A stretch of 20,000 nt of DNA from Chiloscyllium plagiosum (taxonomy: Eukaryota): the NCBI RefSeq assembly GCF_004010195.1, contig NC_057718.1:6049296-6069295 (forward strand), given 5' to 3'. A model generated the notes under the pieces. The model was not told the DNA's origin. It worked only from the letters and a program-made list of their open reading frames with translations, and made no database searches. The position numbers were made by a program, and so were the translations under genes. Positions 1,712 through 20,000 of this stretch are shown here, piece after piece. The first letter of the stretch is position 1, and every line of letters starts with the position of its first letter.

Positions 1712-1971
1712 AATAAAACCAAAAGATGTGGATGCTGAAGATCTGAAATGAAAGCAGAAACCGCTGGAGAAGCTCAGCAGGTCCAGCAGCATCTGTGGAG
1801 TGGAAGCAGAGTTAATATTTAAGTCCAGTGACTTTTCCTCAGAACTTATGGCAGCTAGGAAAGTTATGAGTTCTGAAAAAGGGGTCACTGGGCTCGACAC
1901 GTTGATTCTGCTTTCTCTTCATAGATCCTGCCAGACCTGCTGATTTTCTCCAGCAGTTTCTGCTTTTGTTT
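1712..1971. mobile_element. Penelope-like 3'-end insertion with inverted duplication (family B, old copy)
   Basis: Imperfect inverted arms at ~1751-1846 and ~1869-1967 with a 22-nt spacer. Homologous to 8776-9248. Both arms carry decayed hammerhead cores. Confidence 0.8.
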
Positions 1972-3670: not shown

Positions 3671-3987
3671 AGGTTTCCTCCCACAGTCCAAAGATGTGCA
3701 AGTGGATTGGCCATGCTAAATTGCCCATAGTGTCCAAGGATGTCCAGGTTAGGTGGATTGGCCAAGCTGAATTGCCCATAGTGTCCAAGGATGTGGAGGT
3801 TAGGTGGATTAGCCATGTTAAATTTCCCATAGTGTTCAGGGATGTGTAGGTGAGGTGCATTAATCATGGGAAATGCAAGCTTACGGGACAGGATTGGGGG
3901 GGTAGGTCAGGGTGAGATGACTTGCAGAGGGTCAGCATGGATTCAATGGGCCAATGGCCTTCAGCGACACTGTAGTGATTCTATGAC
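3671..3987 (+). mobile_element. 5'-truncated HE1-like V-SINE with an internal 51-bp tandem expansion
   Basis: V-domain-like ggtttcctcccacagtccaaagatgtgca. 51-bp units start at 3702, 3753, 3804 and 3855 (partial). 3' tail ...cactgtagtgattctatga. Confidence 0.85.
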
Positions 3988-4356: not shown

Positions 4357-4661
4357 ATTAGATTAGATTACTTTACAGTGTGGAAATAGGCCCTTCGGCC
4401 CAACAAGTCCACACCGCCCCGCCGAAGCGCAACCCACCCATACCCCTACATTTACCCCTTACCTAACACTACGGGCAATTTAGCTTGGCCAATTCACCTG
4501 ACCTGCACATCTTTGTGACTGTGGGAGGAAACCGGAGCACCGGGAGGAAACCCGCGCAGATACAGGGAGAACGTGCAAACTCCACACAGTCAGTGGGTGG
4601 GAATTGAACCCGGGTCTCTGGCGCTGTGAGGCAGCAGTGCTAACCACTGTGCCACCCTGCC
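4357..4661 (-). mobile_element. Full-length HE1-like tRNA-derived V-SINE
   Basis: Pol III A box TGGCACAGTGG and B box GGTTCAATTCC on the minus strand, a V-domain, and an (AATCT)n tail. Homologous to 10749-11020. Confidence 0.92.
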
Positions 4662-6556: not shown

Positions 6557-6844
6557 AATAAAGTGGCTTTAGTCTATCATCATAACTCCATCCTATTTTC
6601 TCGATGGACTGAGTCAAATAGATGCTGTGAGCTTGAAATGTTCTACTGCAGAGAATGGAAGAGGCAGAGACAAATGTATCTTTCAGAACAAAAGTGTATA
6701 AAATTTAATCAGAAGGTGATATAGGTCCCTGGGACAATGGAACTGGTTTTCAACTGCTCTAATATTAGTTGGTGCTGTTATTATGGACTGAATAGATTCA
6801 TACTATGCTGTAAACTTCTGTTGCTTCATAGATTAAATCAATGA

Positions 6845-7137: not shown

Positions 7138-7191
7138 AGGTGGTCCTCGTGGTCCTGAAGGTCCAATTGGTCCTTGTTTACCTGGAAAACC
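7138..7191 (-). CDS. FACIT collagen exon, 54 bp, GFPGKQGPIGPSGPRGPP
   Basis: Six Gly-X-Y triplets, acceptor ...ttctttcatattacag, donor gtaagt. Resembles recalled COL12A1 GFTGKDGAMGPRGPPGPP. Confidence 0.95.
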
Positions 7192-7367
7192 CTGTAATAT
7201 GAAAGAAATACAGTCTTGAAAAAGATTGGAGTTAATGTATCTTTTGGCATTAAGCATTTATGCCCCCCCCCATAAAAAACTGTCTGGCAGCACAGTCTTG
7301 ACATCAATCAGCTGGAATTGGCAAGTATCATGAATCAGCTACTTGAGGATCTTGTTAAGTGGGACCT

Positions 7368-7708
7368 CTTATTAATTCATTTATTGTGGGACATCAATGA
7401 GGGTGTTGCTGAATGGGCAAGCATGTCAGATGTCAGTTCAGAGTCAGCCACATTGTTCTGAGTCTGGAGTCACATATAGGCCAGACCAGATAAGGATGGC
7501 CATTTCCTTCCTAAAGGGCATTAGTGAGCCAGGAGGGTGTTTTCCACAACAATTGACAATGATCATCATTAGACTCTTAGTTTCAAATTTTTAACTGGAT
7601 TAAAATTTCACCATCTTTCATGGTGGGAGTTGAACTCAGGTCCCCAGAACATTAACTAGATTTCTGCATTAACAATCCAACAATAATACCCAAGGCCAAT
7701 GCCTTCCC
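7368..7708 (-). mobile_element. SacSINE1/DeuSINE-like tRNA-derived SINE
   Basis: Minus-strand head with B box gagttcaactccc, Deu-domain-like ccagactcagaacaatgtggctgactctgaactg, and an aatgaat-type tail. Confidence 0.75.
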
Positions 7709-9025
7709 AGACTCTTCCAACTGCTCCAAATATGGCACATTACATCACAGAGATGGGTTAAACCAAACAAAGAGGAATCCCAAATGGGGAACCTTCCCTG
7801 CACTGGTCTCTTTCAGTGCCAAATGTTCAAATGCCTGACAACCAGTTAGCTAAAGGTCAGAAAGTGCCACCCACTGGGTATTCCAGGCCTGTCAAAGCTG
7901 AAGCAGCAACAAATCATCCTTGACAAAATCAAACAGCAGTGGTCCTGTATGACTGTCAGGGTCACTTTTTCTGCCTCCTTCCCTCATTCAACAAGCAACC
8001 TGAGTAAACCCACCATGGCATTCATGTTTATATACCATCGCTCAGTAATAGAAGGCGTGTCCCTTTGACTCTAGCAGCATCAAGAGCAGAAGTGGCTTCT
8101 GCCAGGAGATTTTGGAAAAAAATTCATGGGATAAATTTCTAGTCAGCCCACAGCAAGAATGAAGTGGATCTGAATAAGTTTTGCAAAATTGATGTTGGAG
8201 ACTCGGTGGCCTGATTTACACACTGCCAGATTTTCATCCTTAGTAGAAATTAGCATGGGGTAGAAAAGAGGTCGCTGATTCACCATCAATCTTTTGCAGC
8301 TCAGCTTAAAAATAATCTGGCATTTATTCAATGACCACTGGGCATCTCAAAGCTCCTTGGAGTCACTAAAGTATTTTTGAAGTGCAATTTAGGAAACAGA
8401 ACAGTAGCTTTGTGCAGGAAATAACATCATGGTAAAGATAATTTGTTTGATCAGAGGAATGCATCTAAGTTTTTTTCTTTTGCAATGCAACAGAATAACT
8501 CTGAATTATTCATTCAGATCCTCAGCTTTATACAGTCTCTCACTCTGTTGTCTAGTTTAGCTGACACTAATCATTCAGTCAGTTAGTGATTAACATGAAG
8601 GTAACACTAGTGAAGAGCTTTTATTTCTTATTGTTAAGCTTAACTCATTTGGTCGTTCCTCCACCTTAAGACAAGTCAGTTCAATCTCCCTCCATGGCTT
8701 AATCCTACCATCTAGCACTGCACTTTGGTAAATGTTCTTGTCCAGATGACTTGTTGAAGTCATCACTTACTTGTTAAAAACCAAAAAAACTGCAGATTCT
8801 GTAAATCACAAAGACAAACAGAAATTGCTGAAAAACCTCAGCAGGTCCAGCAGCATCTGTGGAGAGAAATCAAAGTTAACGTTTCAGGTCCAGTGACCCT
8901 TCCTTAGAACATGGTTCTGAGGAACGGTCACTGGACACGAAAAGTTAATTTTGCTTTCTCTCCATAGAGCTGAAAATGTGTTGCTGGAAAAGCACAGCAG
9001 GTCAGGCAGCATCCAAGGAACAGGA

Positions 9026-9063
9026 GAATCGACGTTTCGGGCATAAGCCCTTCTTCAGGAATG
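9026..9063 (-). ncRNA. Minimal type I hammerhead ribozyme motif (PLE-type)
   Basis: auuc CUGAAGA A GGGC-UUAU-GCCC GAA ACGU C gauu. Intact core, 4-bp stem II, palindromic stem III, predicted GUC cleavage site. Stem I is weak. Confidence 0.75.
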
Positions 9064-9066
9064 AAG

Positions 9067-9100
9067 CCTGAAGAAGGGCTTATGCCCGAAACGTCGATTC
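9067..9100 (+). ncRNA. Minimal hammerhead ribozyme motif (inverted copy)
   Basis: CUGAAGA 9068-9074, stem II 9076-9087, GAAACGUC 9088-9095. The 5' strand of stem I is mostly lost at the inversion junction. Confidence 0.65.
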
Positions 9101-9753
9101 TCCTGTTCCCTGGATGCTGCCTGACCTGCTGCGCTTTTCCAGCAACACATTTTCAGCTCTGATCTCCAGCATCTGCAGCCCTCATTTTCTCCTTTCTCTC
9201 CATAGATGCTACCAGACCTGCTGAGCTTTTCCAACGATTTCTGTTTTTATCACTTACGTGTTGTTCTAGATGTTAAACATTCTGACCTCAATTTTACGAC
9301 TGTAAGCTATTCAGCTCATTGGGTTCCCGTTGGTGTTTTGATTGAAAATGTTAGGCCATTGTATCACTACTGAACAAAGAGTAACTGCCATCCTTCTTGT
9401 ACACATAATGGTACAAAAGTATAAAGCAATTGGTTATTTATCTCTATACCATTTGTGGGAGTGTACTCATCACTGCTTTGTTTATTACACCTTGTATATC
9501 TCACTTCCCTACGTGCCCCCAATTTCATGAAGGCGCCCACTCCTGGTAGATATGATCCATGACTATCCAGCAGTCTTTGGAGCTTTACCTCAGTACCATG
9601 TCTCCACATCTAAGACTTGTCTGTTACAGTGAGCAGACTGCTTGTTCCTGGGGGTAACTCAGCAAAAGTCCCACGTTTAAATACACTGTTCAGAAACTCA
9701 CAACCAGGAGTATGACACTTAGGTTTCCTTCTTTGACATCCAAGACCACTCTG

Positions 9754-9882
9754 AGGAGAAAGTGAGGACTGCAGATGCTGGAGATCAGAGCTGAGGAAGA
9801 AGGGCTCATACCCGAAACGTCGATTCTCCTGTTCTTTGGATGCTGCCTGACCTGCTGAGCTTTTCCAGCAACACATTTTCAG
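9754..9882. mobile_element. Penelope-like 3'-end insertion (family A) with internal inversion
   Basis: Perfect 16-bp TSD atccaagaccactctg at 9738-9753 and 9883-9898. About 41 bp lie in one orientation and the rest is inverted, including gaagaagggctcatacccgaaacgtc. Confidence 0.92.
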
Positions 9883-10640
9883 ATCCAAGACCACTCTGCC
9901 CTGATTACAACTGAAAGCAAATAAAAACCACATCCACAAGGAGAAATTCAAGATCCTTCCGTTCCATATGGCTCAGTTCCATCCTGGCAGGGTGTAATAA
10001 CTCAGAAAACCCCACTGGAAAGGAACATTATTTAGAGTTAAACATCAAAATAGTGTCATACATAGGTTAGTCCCAGTACAGGACAGACCCATCCTTGGGT
10101 CTGATGTCTTGTTTTGCCTTTTCCAGAAGTGTTCTTACACACTACTGAACATTTTATTTCCCGTCACCAAATCACACTGACAATTAATTGGACAGGTGGC
10201 AGAGATGACCCCCCTCCACAGCCTGCTGCCTGGACCTGACATAGGAGGAGCTCCTCCCATCCGCCCACACCCCTTCACACTGGTTGCCCAAAGATCAGGA
10301 GCGTGGGGGCTGAAGTGCAACTAAAAACACAACAAAAGATTTTCTAAATCACCAAAAAATTGGATCTGCTTTATGTTTTTCTCCCCCCCGGGGGGCCTTG
10401 TAAAGCCCTCACATAGGGGACCTTATCATCCGAGATATGTTCCAGGAAAACCTGAAGGTTGCACTCATACTGCAGTAAATAAAAACTTGCAATTTATGTA
10501 AATATACTTCAAAGCGTTTACTGCCCTCTGCTATTAAATATGCCCAGGTACAAGAAGTGGAGGTGCCGGTGTTGGACTGGGGCGTACAAAGTTAAAAGTG
10601 ACACAACACCAGGTTATAGTCCAACAGGTTTATTTGAAAG

Positions 10641-10675
10641 CACTAGCTTTCGGATCGCTGTTCCTTCATCAGGTG
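10641..10675 (-). ncRNA. Minimal type I hammerhead ribozyme motif (family C)
   Basis: cac CUGAUGA A GGA-acagcga-UCC GAA AGCU A gug. 3-bp stem I, 3-bp stem II, palindromic AGCU stem III. Confidence 0.75.
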
Positions 10676-10748
10676 GTTGTGGAGCTGGATCAGAAGACAC
10701 AGAATTTATATTAAATGACTACAATTTCATACAACTGAAACAGGGGGA

Positions 10749-11020
10749 AGCAGGGTGGCTCAGTGGTTAGCACTGCAGCCTCATAGTACCAGGGACCCAG
10801 GTTCAATTCCAGCCTTAGGCGACTTTCTGTATGGAGCTTGCACATTCTCCCTGCGTCTGTGTGGGTTTGCTCCAGTTTCCTCTCACAATTCAAAGATGTA
10901 CAGGCCAGGTGAATTGGTGTATTAGTCAGAGGGAAATGGGTCTGGGTGGGTTACTCTTCAGAGGGTTAGTGTGGACTTGTTGGGCCGAAGGGCCTGTTTC
11001 CACACTGTAGGGAATCTAAA
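10749..11020 (+). mobile_element. HE1-like tRNA-derived V-SINE
   Basis: A box tggctcagtgg, B box ggttcaattcc, V-domain, and 3' end gggcctgtttccacactgtagggaatctaa. Confidence 0.92.
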
Positions 11021-11254
11021 TGTTAAAAAAATACAAACCATATATTAAACAAACCTAGGTTTCTATTAAGCCTTTCATCTTTTACAATGTCCAGATACAA
11101 GAAGTCCTTCTGAAAATGATTGGGATGTGTCAAGGTGTTTTACAGCCAGTGAAATAAAAGTGTAGCCAGTGTTGTAGGAAAGGATATACATTTGTGTCGA
11201 AAATCTGCACCTTTTTGGGATCTCTCTGATTCACATGAGTAAAACAGTACTCAC

Positions 11255-11308
11255 CCTTGGACCCTCTGTTCCTGCTGTACCTGGAGGGCCAACACGACCA
11301 GATGGTCC
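11255..11308 (-). CDS. FACIT collagen exon, 54 bp, [18 protein letters not shown]
   Basis: Six Gly-X-Y triplets, acceptor ...ttgtttgttaacag, donor gtgagt, phase 0/0. Confidence 0.95.
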
Positions 11309-18449: not shown

Positions 18450-19110
18450 AGAGAAATCTGTAGCATGGATTAGTTGGAAATCAACGAATCGAACAATGGG
18501 CTGCCTTTAAAGGAGAGGGAATTCAAACACAGCCCGGGTATATTTGTAATGGGAAAAGGGAGGGCAAACAAACTTCCTGGATTATGAAAGGGATAGAAAT
18601 TGAGATAAAGCATAAAGAGTGTGCTTATGATAGATGTCAGATAGACAGTACAACTTAAACAAAAATTCCAGGCCGAGTGTAGATGGCTCATTTAAAAACT
18701 AGGAGAAAGTGAAGACTGCAGACGCTGGAGATCAGAGTCAAAAAGTGTAGCGCTGGAAAAGCACAGCGTCCGAGGGGCAGGAGAATCGACGTTTCAGGAG
18801 TAAGCCCTACATCAGGAATCATTTAAAAAGTAGCCAAGAGAAGCAAAATGATAAATGGTCATGATAAATGGTTTGATAAATGGTTTGGTAATTCTAAAGC
18901 CTTCTACAGATAAAAAGTCAGTAAAAAGATAGTAAAGGGAGAACTGGGGACCATTAGACATCAAGATTGTCATTTAGAGTGGAGACAGGGGACAAGAGTG
19001 AGCTTTTAAATAAATACTTTACATCCTGTTTTGACCTAGGAAGAGGAGACAGTTCAAAGACTTAAAGGGTTTAAAATTAATAAAGAAGCATTGACAAAAG
19101 GCTGCCTGTA
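18450..19110 (+). mobile_element. CR1 LINE ORF2 internal remnant
   Basis: Residual peptides GNSKAFYR (from 18887) and ELLNKYFTS (~19000) resemble CR1 ORF2 motifs between the endonuclease and RT domains. Many frameshifts. Confidence 0.7.
18701..18818 (-). mobile_element. Penelope-like 3'-end insertion (family A, no inversion)
   Basis: TSD tcatttaaaaa(c/g)tag at 18688-18702 and 18819-18833. The minus strand begins at a mutated hammerhead, CUGAUGU A GGG..CCU GAAACGUC. Confidence 0.88.
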
Positions 19111-20000
19111 CTTAAATTAATAAAGAGGCGTTGACAATAGGCTACTTGTACTTAAATTAATAAGGAAGCATTGGCAGCAGGCTGCCTGTACTTAAATTAA
19201 TAAAGAGGCGTTGACAATAGGCTACCTGTACTTAAATTAATAAGGAAGCATTGGCAGCAGGCTGCCTGTACTTAAATTAATAAAGAGGCGTTGACAGTAG
19301 GCTGCCTGTACTTAAATTAATAAGGAAGCATTGGCAGCAGGCTGACTGTATGTAAATTAATAAAGAGGCGTTGATAGTAGGCTGCCTGTACTTAAATTAA
19401 TAAGGAAGCATTGGCAGCAGGCTGACTGTATGTAAATTAATAAAGAGGCGTTGACAGTAGGCTGCCTGTACTTAAATTAATAAGGAAACATTGGCAGCAG
19501 GCTGACTGTATGTAAATTAATAAAGAGGCGTGACAATAGGCTGCCTGTACTTAAATTAATAAGGAAGCATTGGCAATAGGCTGCCTGTACTTAAATTAAT
19601 AAAGAAGCATTGGCAATAGGCTGCCTGTACTTAAATTAATAAAGAAGCATTGGCAATAGGCTGCCTGTACTTAAATTAATAAAGAAGCATTGGCAATAGG
19701 CTGCCTGTACTTAAATTAATAAAGAAGCATTGGCAATAGGCTGCCTGTACTTAAATTAATAAAGAAGCATTGGCAATAGGCTGCCTGTACTTAAATTAAT
19801 AAAGAAGCATTGGCAATAGGCTGCCTGTACTTAAATTAATAAAGAAGCATTGGCAATAGGCTGCCTGTACTTAAATTAATAAAGAAGCATTGGCAATAGG
19901 CTGCCTGTACTTAAATTAATAAAGAAGCATTGGCAATAGGCTGCCTGTACTTAAATTAATAAAGAAGCATTGGCAATAGGCTGCCTGTACTTAAATTAAT
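19071..20000. repeat. 40-bp minisatellite, 23 full units plus a partial unit, running off the window
   Basis: Consensus cttaaattaataaagaagcattggcaataggctgcctgta. Variant units at 19071-19589, identical units at 19590-20000. Confidence 0.98.

What the first reader, a model, noticed from the sequence alone, without database searches (positions are those of the whole stretch)
8878..10675. Covarying minimal hammerhead ribozymes shared by three repeat families inside a collagen intron
Seen: three families differ in every stem but keep the same core. Family A is auuc-CUGAAGA-A-GGGC uuau GCCC-GAA ACGU C-gauu (9063-9026 minus; mirror copy 9067-9100 plus). Family B is guu-CU(G/A)AGGA-A-GGGUC acug GACCU-GAA ACGU U-aac (8910-8878 minus with G5 mutated; decayed mirror at 8914-8949). 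Family C is cac-CUGAUGA-A-GGA acagcga UCC-GAA AGCU A-gug (10675-10641 minus). Stems I and II covary, stem III is always a loop-less 4-nt palindrome, and all have an extra A after A9. Established: Penelope-like elements (PLEs) carry minimal type I hammerheads whose palindromic stem III allows cleavage as dimers. Inference: sharks host several abundant hammerhead-bearing PLE or retrozyme-like families. Several copies here lie in the sense orientation of the collagen pre-mRNA.
Basis: partly seen in the sequence, partly recalled or inferred. Interest (0 to 1): 0.78.

Follow-up and report, generated by a model that had tools for sequence, protein, structure and literature searches.

The report
Penelope-type minimal hammerheads in repeats
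These are real copies of the small self-cutting RNA motif carried by Penelope-like jumping genes, left as short dead-end fragments in a collagen gene intron; the kind has been known since 2014 and the copies here are probably inert.

Summary
They lie in an intron of a minus-strand collagen-like gene, and five of nine motif-bearing arms in the window are sense to it.

The motifs are far above chance. Genome-wide, one descriptor gives 168,250 matches against 1,502 for the reversed control, and a second gives 51,829 against 262. The helices covary between families.

I linked family A directly to an autonomous Penelope-like element (PLE). In 7 of 11 loci chosen only by a GIY-YIG endonuclease match, a perfect family A hammerhead lies about 465 nt downstream. 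It is followed by the same roughly 62-nt body, with or without a 35-36-nt tail. Insertions have target-site duplications of varying length and head-to-head inverted arms. These are published PLE hallmarks.

So this is a new member of a known kind (Cervera and de la Pena 2014). Earlier notes of this scan on other DNA of this genome reached the same reading.

The window's sense copies look inert. A is locked in a 94-bp hairpin, B has G5A, and C has a decayed helix II. Cleavage was not testable.

The parts
9026..9063 (-). Family A minimal hammerhead, sense to the collagen gene. The core is intact, and the predicted cut is between 9031 and 9030.
   Evidence: Sequence. Passes the strict descriptor. 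Model R1 scores 47.1 bits.
9063..9100 (+). Mirror family A hammerhead (core 9068-9095), antisense to the gene. Its helix I 5' strand is replaced by the spacer of the palindrome.
   Evidence: R1 scores 35.6 bits.
8969..9193 (.). One family A insertion of 225 bp. Left arm 8969-9059 is inverted and lacks the tail. The spacer is 9060-9067. Right arm 9068-9193 ends in the 35-nt tail 9159-9193. The arms are joined head to head at the hammerhead ends.
   Evidence: Inverted repeat I1: 94 nt, 98% complementary, 7 nt between the arms. As RNA it folds to -199.7 kcal/mol, z -25.8.
8956..8968 (.). Left copy of the 13-bp target-site duplication ttctctccataga of the family A insertion. The right copy is at 9194-9206.
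   Evidence: Read.
9194..9206 (.). Right copy of the 13-bp target-site duplication.
   Evidence: Read.
8873..8912 (-). Family B hammerhead, sense to the gene, with G5 mutated to A (CUAAGGA).
   Evidence: R1 scores 42.9 bits.
8912..8951 (+). Decayed mirror of the family B hammerhead.
   Evidence: R1 scores 24.5 bits.
8785..9250 (.). Older family B inverted pair. The left arm with tail is about 8785-8913. The right arm is 8914-8968 plus 9194 to about 9250, split by the nested family A insertion. The ends are approximate.
   Evidence: Inverted repeats I9 and I10, both 85% complementary, and direct repeats D6 and D8. blastn.
9754..9882 (+). Rearranged family A insertion. The reverse complement of the tail and body end (9754-9794) is joined to a body that lacks the first bases of the hammerhead. 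The resulting CUGAGGA-AGA-AGGGC is a junction product and not an intact core. It is flanked by the 16-bp duplication atccaagaccactctg (9738-9753 and 9883-9898).
   Evidence: D3 (93%) and I13 (95%). R1 gives a partial match of 20.8 bits at 9796-9821.
10639..10677 (-). Family C hammerhead, sense to the gene. It passes the descriptor, but helix II has decayed to 3 bp. The predicted cut is between 10644 and 10643.
   Evidence: R1 scores 11.6 bits, E 0.63, with filters off. The minimum-energy fold does not form helix II.
10559..10712 (-). Family C unit: about 35 nt ahead of the hammerhead, the hammerhead, a body, and a tail of about 27 nt (acgccccagtccaacaccggcacctcc). The ends are approximate.
   Evidence: blastn against other copies. 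Contexts.
7138..7191 (-). 54-bp Gly-X-Y exon that bounds the intron downstream in the gene's sense.
11255..11308 (-). 54-bp Gly-X-Y exon that bounds the intron upstream in the gene's sense.
18783..18820 (-). A further family A arm, with A9 mutated (CUGAUGU) and a weakened helix II.
   Evidence: R1 scores 25.5 bits.
1809..1908 (.). Decayed family B inverted pair: hammerhead relics at 1809-1847 (minus) and 1868-1908 (plus).
   Evidence: R1 scores 33.3 and 20.3 bits.

Best explanation
The three families are the 3'-terminal parts of Penelope-like retrotransposons (PLEs). Each carries the minimal type I hammerhead typical of metazoan PLEs.

Shown:
- The family A hammerhead lies in the 3' untranslated region of an element that encodes a GIY-YIG endonuclease. 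An RT motif lies upstream in one locus (L010).
- Insertions end about 62 nt after the cleavage site, or about 98 nt when the optional 35-36-nt tail is present.
- Most copies are cut short at the 5' edge of the hammerhead. They are often joined there to an inverted second arm, and they are flanked by target-site duplications of varying length.

Inferred from published work on an Anolis PLE:
- The element's protein nicks both DNA strands.
- It starts reverse transcription at two neighbouring internal sites on the RNA. That would give the tail and the head-to-head pairs.

Inferred from the literature and not tested here:
- In master copies the hammerhead cuts element RNA only when two copies pair through the palindromic ACGU or AGCU, that is as dimers, perhaps helped by the element's protein.

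The copies in this collagen intron are passive relics and probably do not cut the pre-mRNA.
For: Motif and chance:
- All core features sit at the stated coordinates.
- In an unselected 200-kb sample there were 21 descriptor hits, against 0 in the reversed sequence and a mean of 2.58 in Markov simulations.
- 12 of those hits have a palindromic helix III, against a simulated mean of 0.16. 20 of the 21 have exactly one unpaired base after A9.
- Genome-wide: 168,250 against 1,502 and 51,829 against 262. The family A 33-mer has 154,084 matches with up to 3 mismatches, against 0 for the control.

Covariation:
- On 15 hand-picked copies, 82% of cells pair, against 24-46% (one slide 5.7%) when the partners are slid. 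8 of 9 pairs change on both sides. The score is 0.486 against 0.232, reached by 0 of 500 shuffles.
- On all 63 model matches, 76.6% pair, against at most 47% when slid.
- Family C: C-G changes to U-A in helix I. Family D: G-C changes to C-G.

Link to PLE:
- The ORF just upstream of a family A hammerhead matches GIY-YIG at Pfam's cut-off (22.6 bits, E 1.3e-4). An RT motif RYIDD lies in frame upstream in a second locus (RVT_1, E 0.002, below cut-off).
- Of 11 independent loci chosen only by the endonuclease match, 7 have a perfect 28-nt family A hammerhead 459-467 nt after the YIGET codon. The ORF stop lies 28-158 nt before the hammerhead. The body ends at cattttcagc(t) in 5 loci and carries the tail in 2.
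- One locus has an inverted 5'-truncated copy at the 5' end.
- Family D: YVDD RT (RVT_1, E 4.4e-6) and an ATG formed by A9, U and G10.1.

Insertion signature:
- Target-site duplications of roughly 8-16 bp, head-to-head arms, and a tail on one arm only.

Literature:
- The same hallmarks are listed in PMC4209133 (parts 1-2 read), PMC8557442 (passages) and PMC11167929 (passages).
Against: - No Rfam hammerhead family matched, either at gathering score or at E up to 10 in 8700-10900. This is expected for a motif without helix III, but it means no curated model confirms it.
- As monomers the motifs fold no better than shuffles (z -1.29 to +0.03).
- Helix I of family A has a U.U mismatch.
- Only 18 of the 59 sampled arms that reach the hammerhead pass the strict descriptor, and 12 also keep the palindrome.
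- Families B and C were not linked to a coding element here.
- The RT match for family A is below Pfam's cut-off, and the coding parts between RT and endonuclease read N in what I fetched.
- Published work leaves the function open. In vitro cleavage is low even for dimers (PMC4209133). Cleavage is not needed for insertion in vitro, and no RNA-seq reads end at the site in Anolis (PMC11167929). PLE clades without hammerheads proliferate well (PMC8557442).
Confidence: 0.88

Rival explanations
1. The short units are a dedicated non-autonomous (SINE-like or retrozyme-like) RNA and not the product of reverse transcriptase stopping early. The RNA would begin exactly at helix I, perhaps at an initiator-like TCATTC. 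PLE machinery would copy it in trans.
For: - Of 23 family A heads in the unselected sample, 17 end within about 5 nt upstream of C3. 14 of those are joined to an inverted arm and 3 abut unrelated DNA. Only 6 run on into the upstream region.
- 10 of 13 family C arms start 4 nt or less before C3.
- Contigs of other organisms break at 9062-9064.
- Arrays of a 38-nt unit that is exactly the hammerhead domain exist.
- YYANWYY with its A four bases before C3 occurs in 6 of 28 strict heads, against a background of 1.3%. All 6 are family A, so this is one lineage. The initiator consensus is recalled and comes from no call.
Against: - The same hammerhead, body and tail form the 3' end of endonuclease-coding copies, so no separate master gene is needed.
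- Families C and D lack the initiator-like word.
- No RNA data could be laid on the stretch.
- Tandem arrangements are rare: 161 against about 168,000 motifs.
Confidence: 0.2
2. The motif is kept in active elements for a reason other than self-cleavage. It might be a protein-binding or template-end structure used in reverse transcription, with the hammerhead core as a by-product or relic.
For: - Cleavage is not needed for insertion in vitro, and the ribozyme needs the protein (PMC11167929, passages).
- In vitro activity is low (PMC4209133).
- The 5' ends of arms coincide with the edge of the domain.
Against: The positions conserved across unrelated families are exactly the catalytic ones, while helices I and II vary and covary. 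That pattern is what a working ribozyme predicts. Fungal, plant and protist PLEs have efficient hammerheads (PMC4209133).
Confidence: 0.12
3. The palindromes are fold-back DNA transposons (MITEs) or microRNA-type hairpin genes, and the hammerhead resemblance is incidental.
For: - A 94-bp near-perfect hairpin.
- Sub-threshold Rfam matches to many microRNA precursor families, best 69.2 bits against a gathering score of 90.
Against: - The target-site duplications vary in length (roughly 8-16 bp).
- The arms are unequal, with a tail on one side.
- Single-arm and 5'-truncated copies are common, and the same sequence ends an RT-endonuclease element.
- The microRNA matches go to unrelated plant and animal families at once, which points to hairpin shape alone.
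Confidence: 0.02
4. The motifs are chance matches to a short, loose descriptor.
For: The descriptor specifies few bases. 2 of 200 shuffles of the window reached 7 matches of the loosest pattern.
Against: - 112-fold and 198-fold excess over the reversed controls.
- At least four sequence-unrelated contexts share the same architecture, including the unpaired base and the palindrome, neither of which was asked for in the first pattern.
Confidence: 0.01

Closest known systems
Minimal hammerheads (min-HHR) in the pseudo-LTRs of metazoan Penelope-like elements (Cervera and de la Pena 2014, PMC4209133)
   Same: - Type I layout with no loop III and a palindromic 15.2-16.2.
- One unpaired base between A9 and 10.1.
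- G10.1-C11.1.
- A short helix I.
- Many consensus families per genome with compensatory changes.
- Mostly solitary copies from truncated elements, and pairs on opposite strands close together.
   Different: - Copy numbers here are one to two orders higher than the roughly 4,000 (coelacanth) and 9,000 (Xenopus) quoted there.
- No cartilaginous fish is named in the parts I read. The supplements were not seen.
Poseidon element PAc of Anolis carolinensis (PMC11167929)
   Same: - An optional 30-40-bp tail, explained by two neighbouring internal start sites of reverse transcription.
- Both DNA strands are cut and extended.
- Family D, like PAc, starts its ORF at the beginning of helix II (the ATG spans A9-U-G10.1), with the cut site 28 nt after the A of the ATG (26 in PAc).
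   Different: In family A the hammerhead lies after the ORF stop, 157-158 nt downstream in 4 of 7 loci. The ATG in loop II opens only a 26-codon frame.
PLE insertion architecture (Craig et al. 2021, PMC8557442)
   Same: Strong 5' truncation, an inverted 5'-truncated copy adjacent to the unit, and a tail at one end only.
   Different: Here the inverted pairs are mostly tiny (about 95 plus 130 nt) and are joined at the hammerhead's 5' edge.
Animal non-LTR retrozymes (PMC7229834, listing and abstract only; bioRxiv 10.64898/2026.07.22.740005)
   Same: Type I hammerheads derived from PLE pseudo-LTRs. The preprint samples one chondrichthyan. Rare arrays of 38-nt and 54-nt hammerhead units exist here.
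   Different: Retrozymes are tandem arrays that give circular RNAs. The copies in the window are dispersed single or inverted arms. Tandem pairs are about 0.1% of family A motifs.
Rfam hammerhead families
   Same: The catalytic core.
   Different: No match at gathering score, nor at E up to 10. The motif has no helix III hairpin.

Membership tests
Metazoan PLE minimal hammerhead (min-HHR) | Core CUGANGA ... GAAA with H17 not G | tested here: met
   Met by A (both arms) and C in the window. B has G5A, and its mirror is decayed. 18 of 59 sampled arms that reach the motif pass the strict descriptor.
Metazoan PLE minimal hammerhead (min-HHR) | One unpaired nucleotide between A9 and 10.1 | tested here: met
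   20 of 21 descriptor hits in the 200-kb sample. It is A in families A, B and C and U in D.
Metazoan PLE minimal hammerhead (min-HHR) | No loop III, and palindromic 15.2-16.2 | tested here: met
   ACGU in A, B and D; AGCU in C. 12 of 21 hits are palindromic, against 0.16 expected. 7 others are ACAU or AUGU, the CpG-decay products of ACGU.
Metazoan PLE minimal hammerhead (min-HHR) | Helix II closed by G10.1-C11.1, and families with compensatory changes | tested here: met
   The first helix II pair is G-C in 12 of 15 rows. 5 of 5 helix II pairs and 3 of 4 helix I pairs change on both sides. All 63 model matches were also counted.
Metazoan PLE minimal hammerhead (min-HHR) | Sits in the terminal repeat of an element that encodes RT plus a C-terminal GIY-YIG endonuclease | tested here: met
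   Family A: GIY-YIG at Pfam's cut-off, and 7 of 11 endonuclease-anchored loci carry the hammerhead. The RT match is weak and partly masked. Family D: RT only. Families B and C: not tested.
Metazoan PLE minimal hammerhead (min-HHR) | Self-cleavage, as dimers | not testable with these tools
   The one raw RNA run laid no reads. No bench work was possible.
PLE insertion unit | 5' truncation, an adjacent inverted 5'-truncated copy, a 30-40-bp tail at one end, and target-site duplications of varying length | tested here: met
   Window insertions with 13-bp and 16-bp duplications and a 35-nt tail on one arm. Loci L001-L008, L028 and L042.
Non-LTR retrozyme | Head-to-tail tandem units, each with a hammerhead | tested here: not met
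   No tandem arrangement of the motifs among the repeats of the window. Genome-wide there are 71 plus 90 tandem pairs at unit spacing, against 168,250 motifs.
Rfam hammerhead families | Match to a curated covariance model | tested here: not met
   0 matches at gathering score. No hammerhead among 26 matches at E up to 10.
Fold-back DNA transposon or microRNA hairpin | Fixed-length duplication and symmetric termini, or a match above a microRNA family's gathering score | tested here: not met
   Duplications of roughly 8-16 bp and unequal arms. The best microRNA match is 69.2 bits against a gathering score of 90.

The most novel reading that the evidence does not exclude
The hammerhead domain may mark the 5' end of the RNA that PLE reverse transcriptase copies.

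In family A most arms stop within about 5 nt upstream of C3, and in family C within 4 nt. Rare arrays repeat exactly the 38-nt hammerhead domain. In the A/B lineage the 5' strand of helix I overlaps an initiator-like TCA(G/T)TY word.

If transcripts start at helix I, two things follow:
- Internal priming about 95-130 nt downstream would mass-produce the short hammerhead-headed units seen here, on the order of a million arms if the sample is typical.
- Self-cleavage would remove the capped 32-nt leader. That role differs from the proposed trimming of tandem precursors.
Probability: 0.15. Interest if true: 0.5.

Novelty: new member of a known kind. Interest (0 to 1): 0.15.

Why it matters
It adds a well-documented case to a known class: PLE minimal hammerheads at very high copy number in a large vertebrate genome, tied to an endonuclease-coding element.

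Genome annotators should expect two things. Rfam models miss these motifs. The palindromic insertions mimic microRNA precursors.

The clustering of 5' ends at the edge of the hammerhead is a small, testable lead on how PLEs make their RNA template. It does not open a new field.

Tried and rejected
RNA evidence:
- No RNA holder was listed for the stretch.
- The one raw-read RNA run I laid (X20, single-cell polyA) gave 0 reads, which is no test.
- So the ends at 9031/9030 and 10644/10643 could not be mapped.

Other organisms:
- Logan contigs of three other coded organisms hold families A, B and C at 90-100% identity (6,952, 32,286 and 27,028 contigs laid).
- These runs are only guessed to be RNA, so they show presence and not expression.

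Searches that led nowhere:
- A Pfam GIY-YIG search of the whole genome scored only 150 of 14,403 candidates and gave one weak hit.
- The long 'open frames' proved to be runs of withheld N in the locus I fetched. I make no claim that intact or active elements exist.

Alignment and model limits:
- MAFFT put family C one column out of register, so C was left out of the alignment that was counted.
- The model built from A, B and D finds C only at about 12 bits with filters off.

Sampling:
The unbiased sample is therefore one 5.5-Mb region of one contig.

Literature:
- Lunse et al. 2017 (PMC5785218) is not held. I know it only from its title in the reference list of PMC6765202.
- Searches for sharks plus hammerhead ribozyme and sharks plus Penelope gave no on-topic title. 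I saw listings only.

Rejected ideas:
- The initiator-word idea rests on one lineage.
- Rejected readings: MITE or microRNA hairpin, and chance.
Full report
**Observation**

The window sequence shows the motifs as described.

- Family A on the minus strand, 9063-9026, reads CAUUC-CUGAAGA-A-GGGC-UUAU-GCCC-GAA-ACGU-C-GAUUC. Its mirror on the plus strand has the core at 9068-9095.
- Family B on the minus strand, 8912-8873, reads GUU-CUAAGGA-A-GGGUC-ACUG-GACCU-GAA-ACGU-U-AAC, with G5 changed to A. The mirror at 8914-8949 is decayed.
- Family C on the minus strand, 10675-10641, reads CAC-CUGAUGA-A-GGA-ACAGCGA-UCC-GAA-AGCU-A-GUG.

There are small corrections. B's interval should run to about 8873. 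A and B are homologous subfamilies. Helix I of A has a U.U mismatch. The 3-bp helix II of the window's C copy is a decayed form of a 5-bp helix GGAGC/GCUCC seen in other copies.

**Chance**

- In the window, the loose pattern CTGANGA-N6-30-GAAA gave 7 matches against 2.19 expected. 2 of 200 shuffles reached 7.
- I fetched twenty 10-kb stretches at fixed intervals from another contig (about 185 kb after withheld N). I scanned them with a descriptor that asks for the two core boxes and a helix II of at least 3 bp.
- That scan gave 21 hits. The reversed sequence gave 0, and 50 first-order Markov simulations gave a mean of 2.58 (maximum 6).
- 12 hits have a palindromic ANNU, against a simulated mean of 0.16. 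20 of 21 have exactly one unpaired base after A9, which the descriptor did not require.
- Genome-wide, CTGANGA-N10-22-GAAACGTH has 168,250 matches against 1,502 for the backwards control.
- The GAAAGCTH version has 51,829 against 262.
- The family A 33-mer has 154,084 matches with up to 3 mismatches, against 0 for the control.

**Anatomy in the window**

The repeats are nested insertions.

- A 225-bp family A insertion (8969-9193) consists of two inverted arms joined at their hammerhead ends (94 nt, 98% complementary, 7 nt apart). Only the right arm carries a 35-nt tail (9159-9193). The insertion is flanked by a 13-bp duplication (8956-8968 and 9194-9206).
- That insertion sits inside the right arm of an older family B inverted pair.
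- A second family A insertion (9754-9882) is flanked by a 16-bp duplication. It joins the reverse complement of the tail to a body that lacks the first bases of the hammerhead. Its apparent CUGAGGA box is a junction product.
- Family C is a single unit with a tail.

Eight loci taken from the family A pattern search show the same grammar: a unit that begins at or near cattc-CTGAAGA, a body that ends at cattttcagc(t), an optional tail, an optional inverted partner of varying length, and duplications of about 8-15 bp.

**Link to a coding element**

- In the unselected sample, two family A copies extend upstream of the hammerhead.
- One of them (L011) has an ORF containing IYCILCTRCGLLYIGETGRLLAERFREH about 300 nt upstream of the hammerhead. 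It matches Pfam GIY-YIG at the curated cut-off (22.6 bits, E 1.3e-4).
- The other (L010) has an RT motif (RYIDD; RVT_1 E 0.002, below cut-off) in the same frame, separated from the hammerhead by withheld N.
- Searching the genome with the 89-residue endonuclease piece gave 150 scored matches out of 104,843 candidates, at 88-100% identity.
- Of the 11 returned loci other than the query's own, 7 have a perfect 28-nt family A hammerhead 459-467 nt after the YIGET codon.
- One has the hammerhead with an internal deletion. Three have none, and one of those three is largely N.
- In the 7, the ORF stop lies 157-158 nt before C3 in four, 114 nt before in two, and 28 nt before in one.
- The insertion ends at cattttcagc(t) in five and carries the tail in two.
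- A 4.2-kb locus shows an inverted 5'-truncated copy at the element's 5' side (425 nt, 87%). Its coding part reads N, so the long 'open frames' listed are not evidence of intact genes.
- A fourth family, D, lies next to an RT with YVDD (RVT_1 E 4.4e-6). Its ORF starts with an ATG formed by A9, the unpaired U and G10.1.

**Covariation**

I aligned 15 copies chosen by hand from the 87 sampled arms and the window's arms, to represent subfamilies of A, B and D. Five family C rows were dropped because MAFFT put them out of register.

- 82% of cells form standard pairs, against 24-46% (one slide 5.7%) when partners are slid by 1-3 columns and 67% in shuffles.
- 8 of 9 pairs change on both sides (8 of 500 shuffles reach this).
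- The covariation score is 0.486 against 0.232 (0 of 500 shuffles).

The caveat is that I picked the rows and drew the structure from them.

A covariance model built from this alignment found 63 matches at E up to 1 in 220 kb. On that alignment, which is fitted to the model, 76.6% of cells pair against at most 47% when slid.

Single clear events:
- Helix II of B is that of A with one U-A pair added.
- C subfamilies differ by C-G to U-A in helix I.
- D subfamilies differ by G-C to C-G in helix I.

Family C scores only about 12 bits with the A/B/D model. It is therefore independent in sequence but has the same layout. The genome lists show further helix II types, for example GUUACC/GGUAAU and AGCA/UGCU.

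**State of the copies**

- In the sample I counted 87 arms (A 49, B 20, C 14, D 4).
- 59 reach the start of the hammerhead, 18 pass the strict descriptor, and 12 also keep the palindrome.
- Common defects are CpG decay products: ACGU to AUGU or ACAU, and C11.1-G12 to CA.
- In the window, 9 arms carry the motif or a relic of it, 3 pass the descriptor, and 5 are sense to the gene.
- The sense-strand RNA of the family A insertion folds into one hairpin of -199.7 kcal/mol (shuffles -77.5, z -25.8). That buries the core.
- Isolated motifs fold no better than shuffles, and the C copy does not form helix II.
- I infer that none of the sense copies cuts the collagen pre-mRNA.

**Host gene**

Three 54-bp Gly-X-Y exons and one of 72 bp, all with ag/gt borders, lie on the minus strand. 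Pfam Collagen matched one of them at E 3.9e-4, below cut-off. The finding lies in the intron 7192-11254.

**Comparison with what is known**

- Cervera and de la Pena 2014 (PMC4209133, parts 1-2 of 4 read) define min-HHRs of metazoan PLEs by the features seen here. Those features include the unpaired base, G10.1-C11.1, the palindrome, families with compensatory changes, solitary copies, and nearby pairs on opposite strands. They report low activity even as dimers.
- Craig et al. 2021 (PMC8557442, passages) list 5' truncation, an adjacent inverted 5'-truncated copy, and a 30-40-bp tail at one end.
- The 2024 Anolis study (PMC11167929, passages) explains the tail by two internal start sites of reverse transcription. 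It shows that both DNA strands are cut and extended, and that the ribozyme is protein-assisted and not needed for insertion in vitro.
- A 2026 preprint (10.64898/2026.07.22.740005; abstract, passages and section 14 read) derives animal retrozymes from PLE pseudo-LTRs and includes one chondrichthyan.
- Rfam's hammerhead models do not match.
- Tandem pairs at unit spacing are rare: 71 plus 90. Some are arrays of a 38-nt or 54-nt unit.

**Open point**

Most family A and C arms stop at the 5' edge of helix I. A structural block to the enzyme would be expected on the 3' side of the domain, so this is not explained by one. Possible explanations are an RNA 5' end at that position or a preferred template switch there. 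I could not test either.

**Earlier notes of this scan**

Notes on other DNA of the same genome reached the same classification. I used them as leads only. The tests above are my own.

**Verdict**

This is a new member of a known kind, and interest is low.

Noticed in passing
L043:247-425 and L044:161-512: Tandem arrays made almost only of the hammerhead domain. One has 4.7 copies of a 38-nt unit (cattc, the 28-nt core and gaatc), 98% alike, and leads into a normal body plus tail. The other has 6.5 copies of a 54-nt unit.
   Followed up: partly
L026:4383-4522 and 6626-6757 (minus); L011:59-151: Family D hammerhead CUGAGGA-U-GUCACC...GGGGAC-GAA-ACGU-C. The element's ORF appears to start inside it (the ATG spans A9-U-G10.1), as published for an Anolis PLE. 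Two copies lie 2.2 kb apart in direct orientation with RT motifs between them.
   Followed up: partly
window 8969-9160: As part of the collagen pre-mRNA, this insertion would form a 94-bp near-perfect double-stranded hairpin (-199.7 kcal/mol). It gives sub-threshold Rfam matches to many unrelated microRNA precursor families.
   Followed up: partly
window 18914-20000: A satellite of 40-bp units (at least 23 copies, running to the window's end). Two variants alternate in part of it, which suggests an 80-bp higher-order repeat.
   Followed up: no
window 3702-3854 with 4466-4515: Three tandem 51-bp units (84-100% alike), with an inverted partner about 700 bp away. This is a different repeat family.
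   Followed up: no
window 10740-10810 with 4600-4660, and 10938-11009 with 4374-4445: Inverted matches (61 nt at 89%, 72 nt at 88%) of a repeat whose start looks tRNA-like (gggtggctcagtggttagcac...ggttcaattcc). It is probably a tRNA-derived SINE.
   Followed up: no
G000:C1 places listed: Further hammerhead families with other helix II sequences, such as U-GUUACC-UCGCCA-GGUAAU with ACGU and A-AGCA-AGCA-UGCU with AGCU. The genome therefore holds more than the four families studied.
   Followed up: no
upstream edge of family A, A4/A5 and B heads (for example L010:1894-1900): The 5' strand of helix I overlaps an initiator-like word, TCA(G/T)TY, whose A lies four bases before C3. That is where most short copies begin. 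It was seen in 6 of 28 strict heads, all of family A.
   Followed up: partly
L010, L011, L026, L035, L042: The stretches that read N fall on the RT and endonuclease coding parts of the PLE copies. Open-frame lengths that run across them are therefore not meaningful.
   Followed up: no
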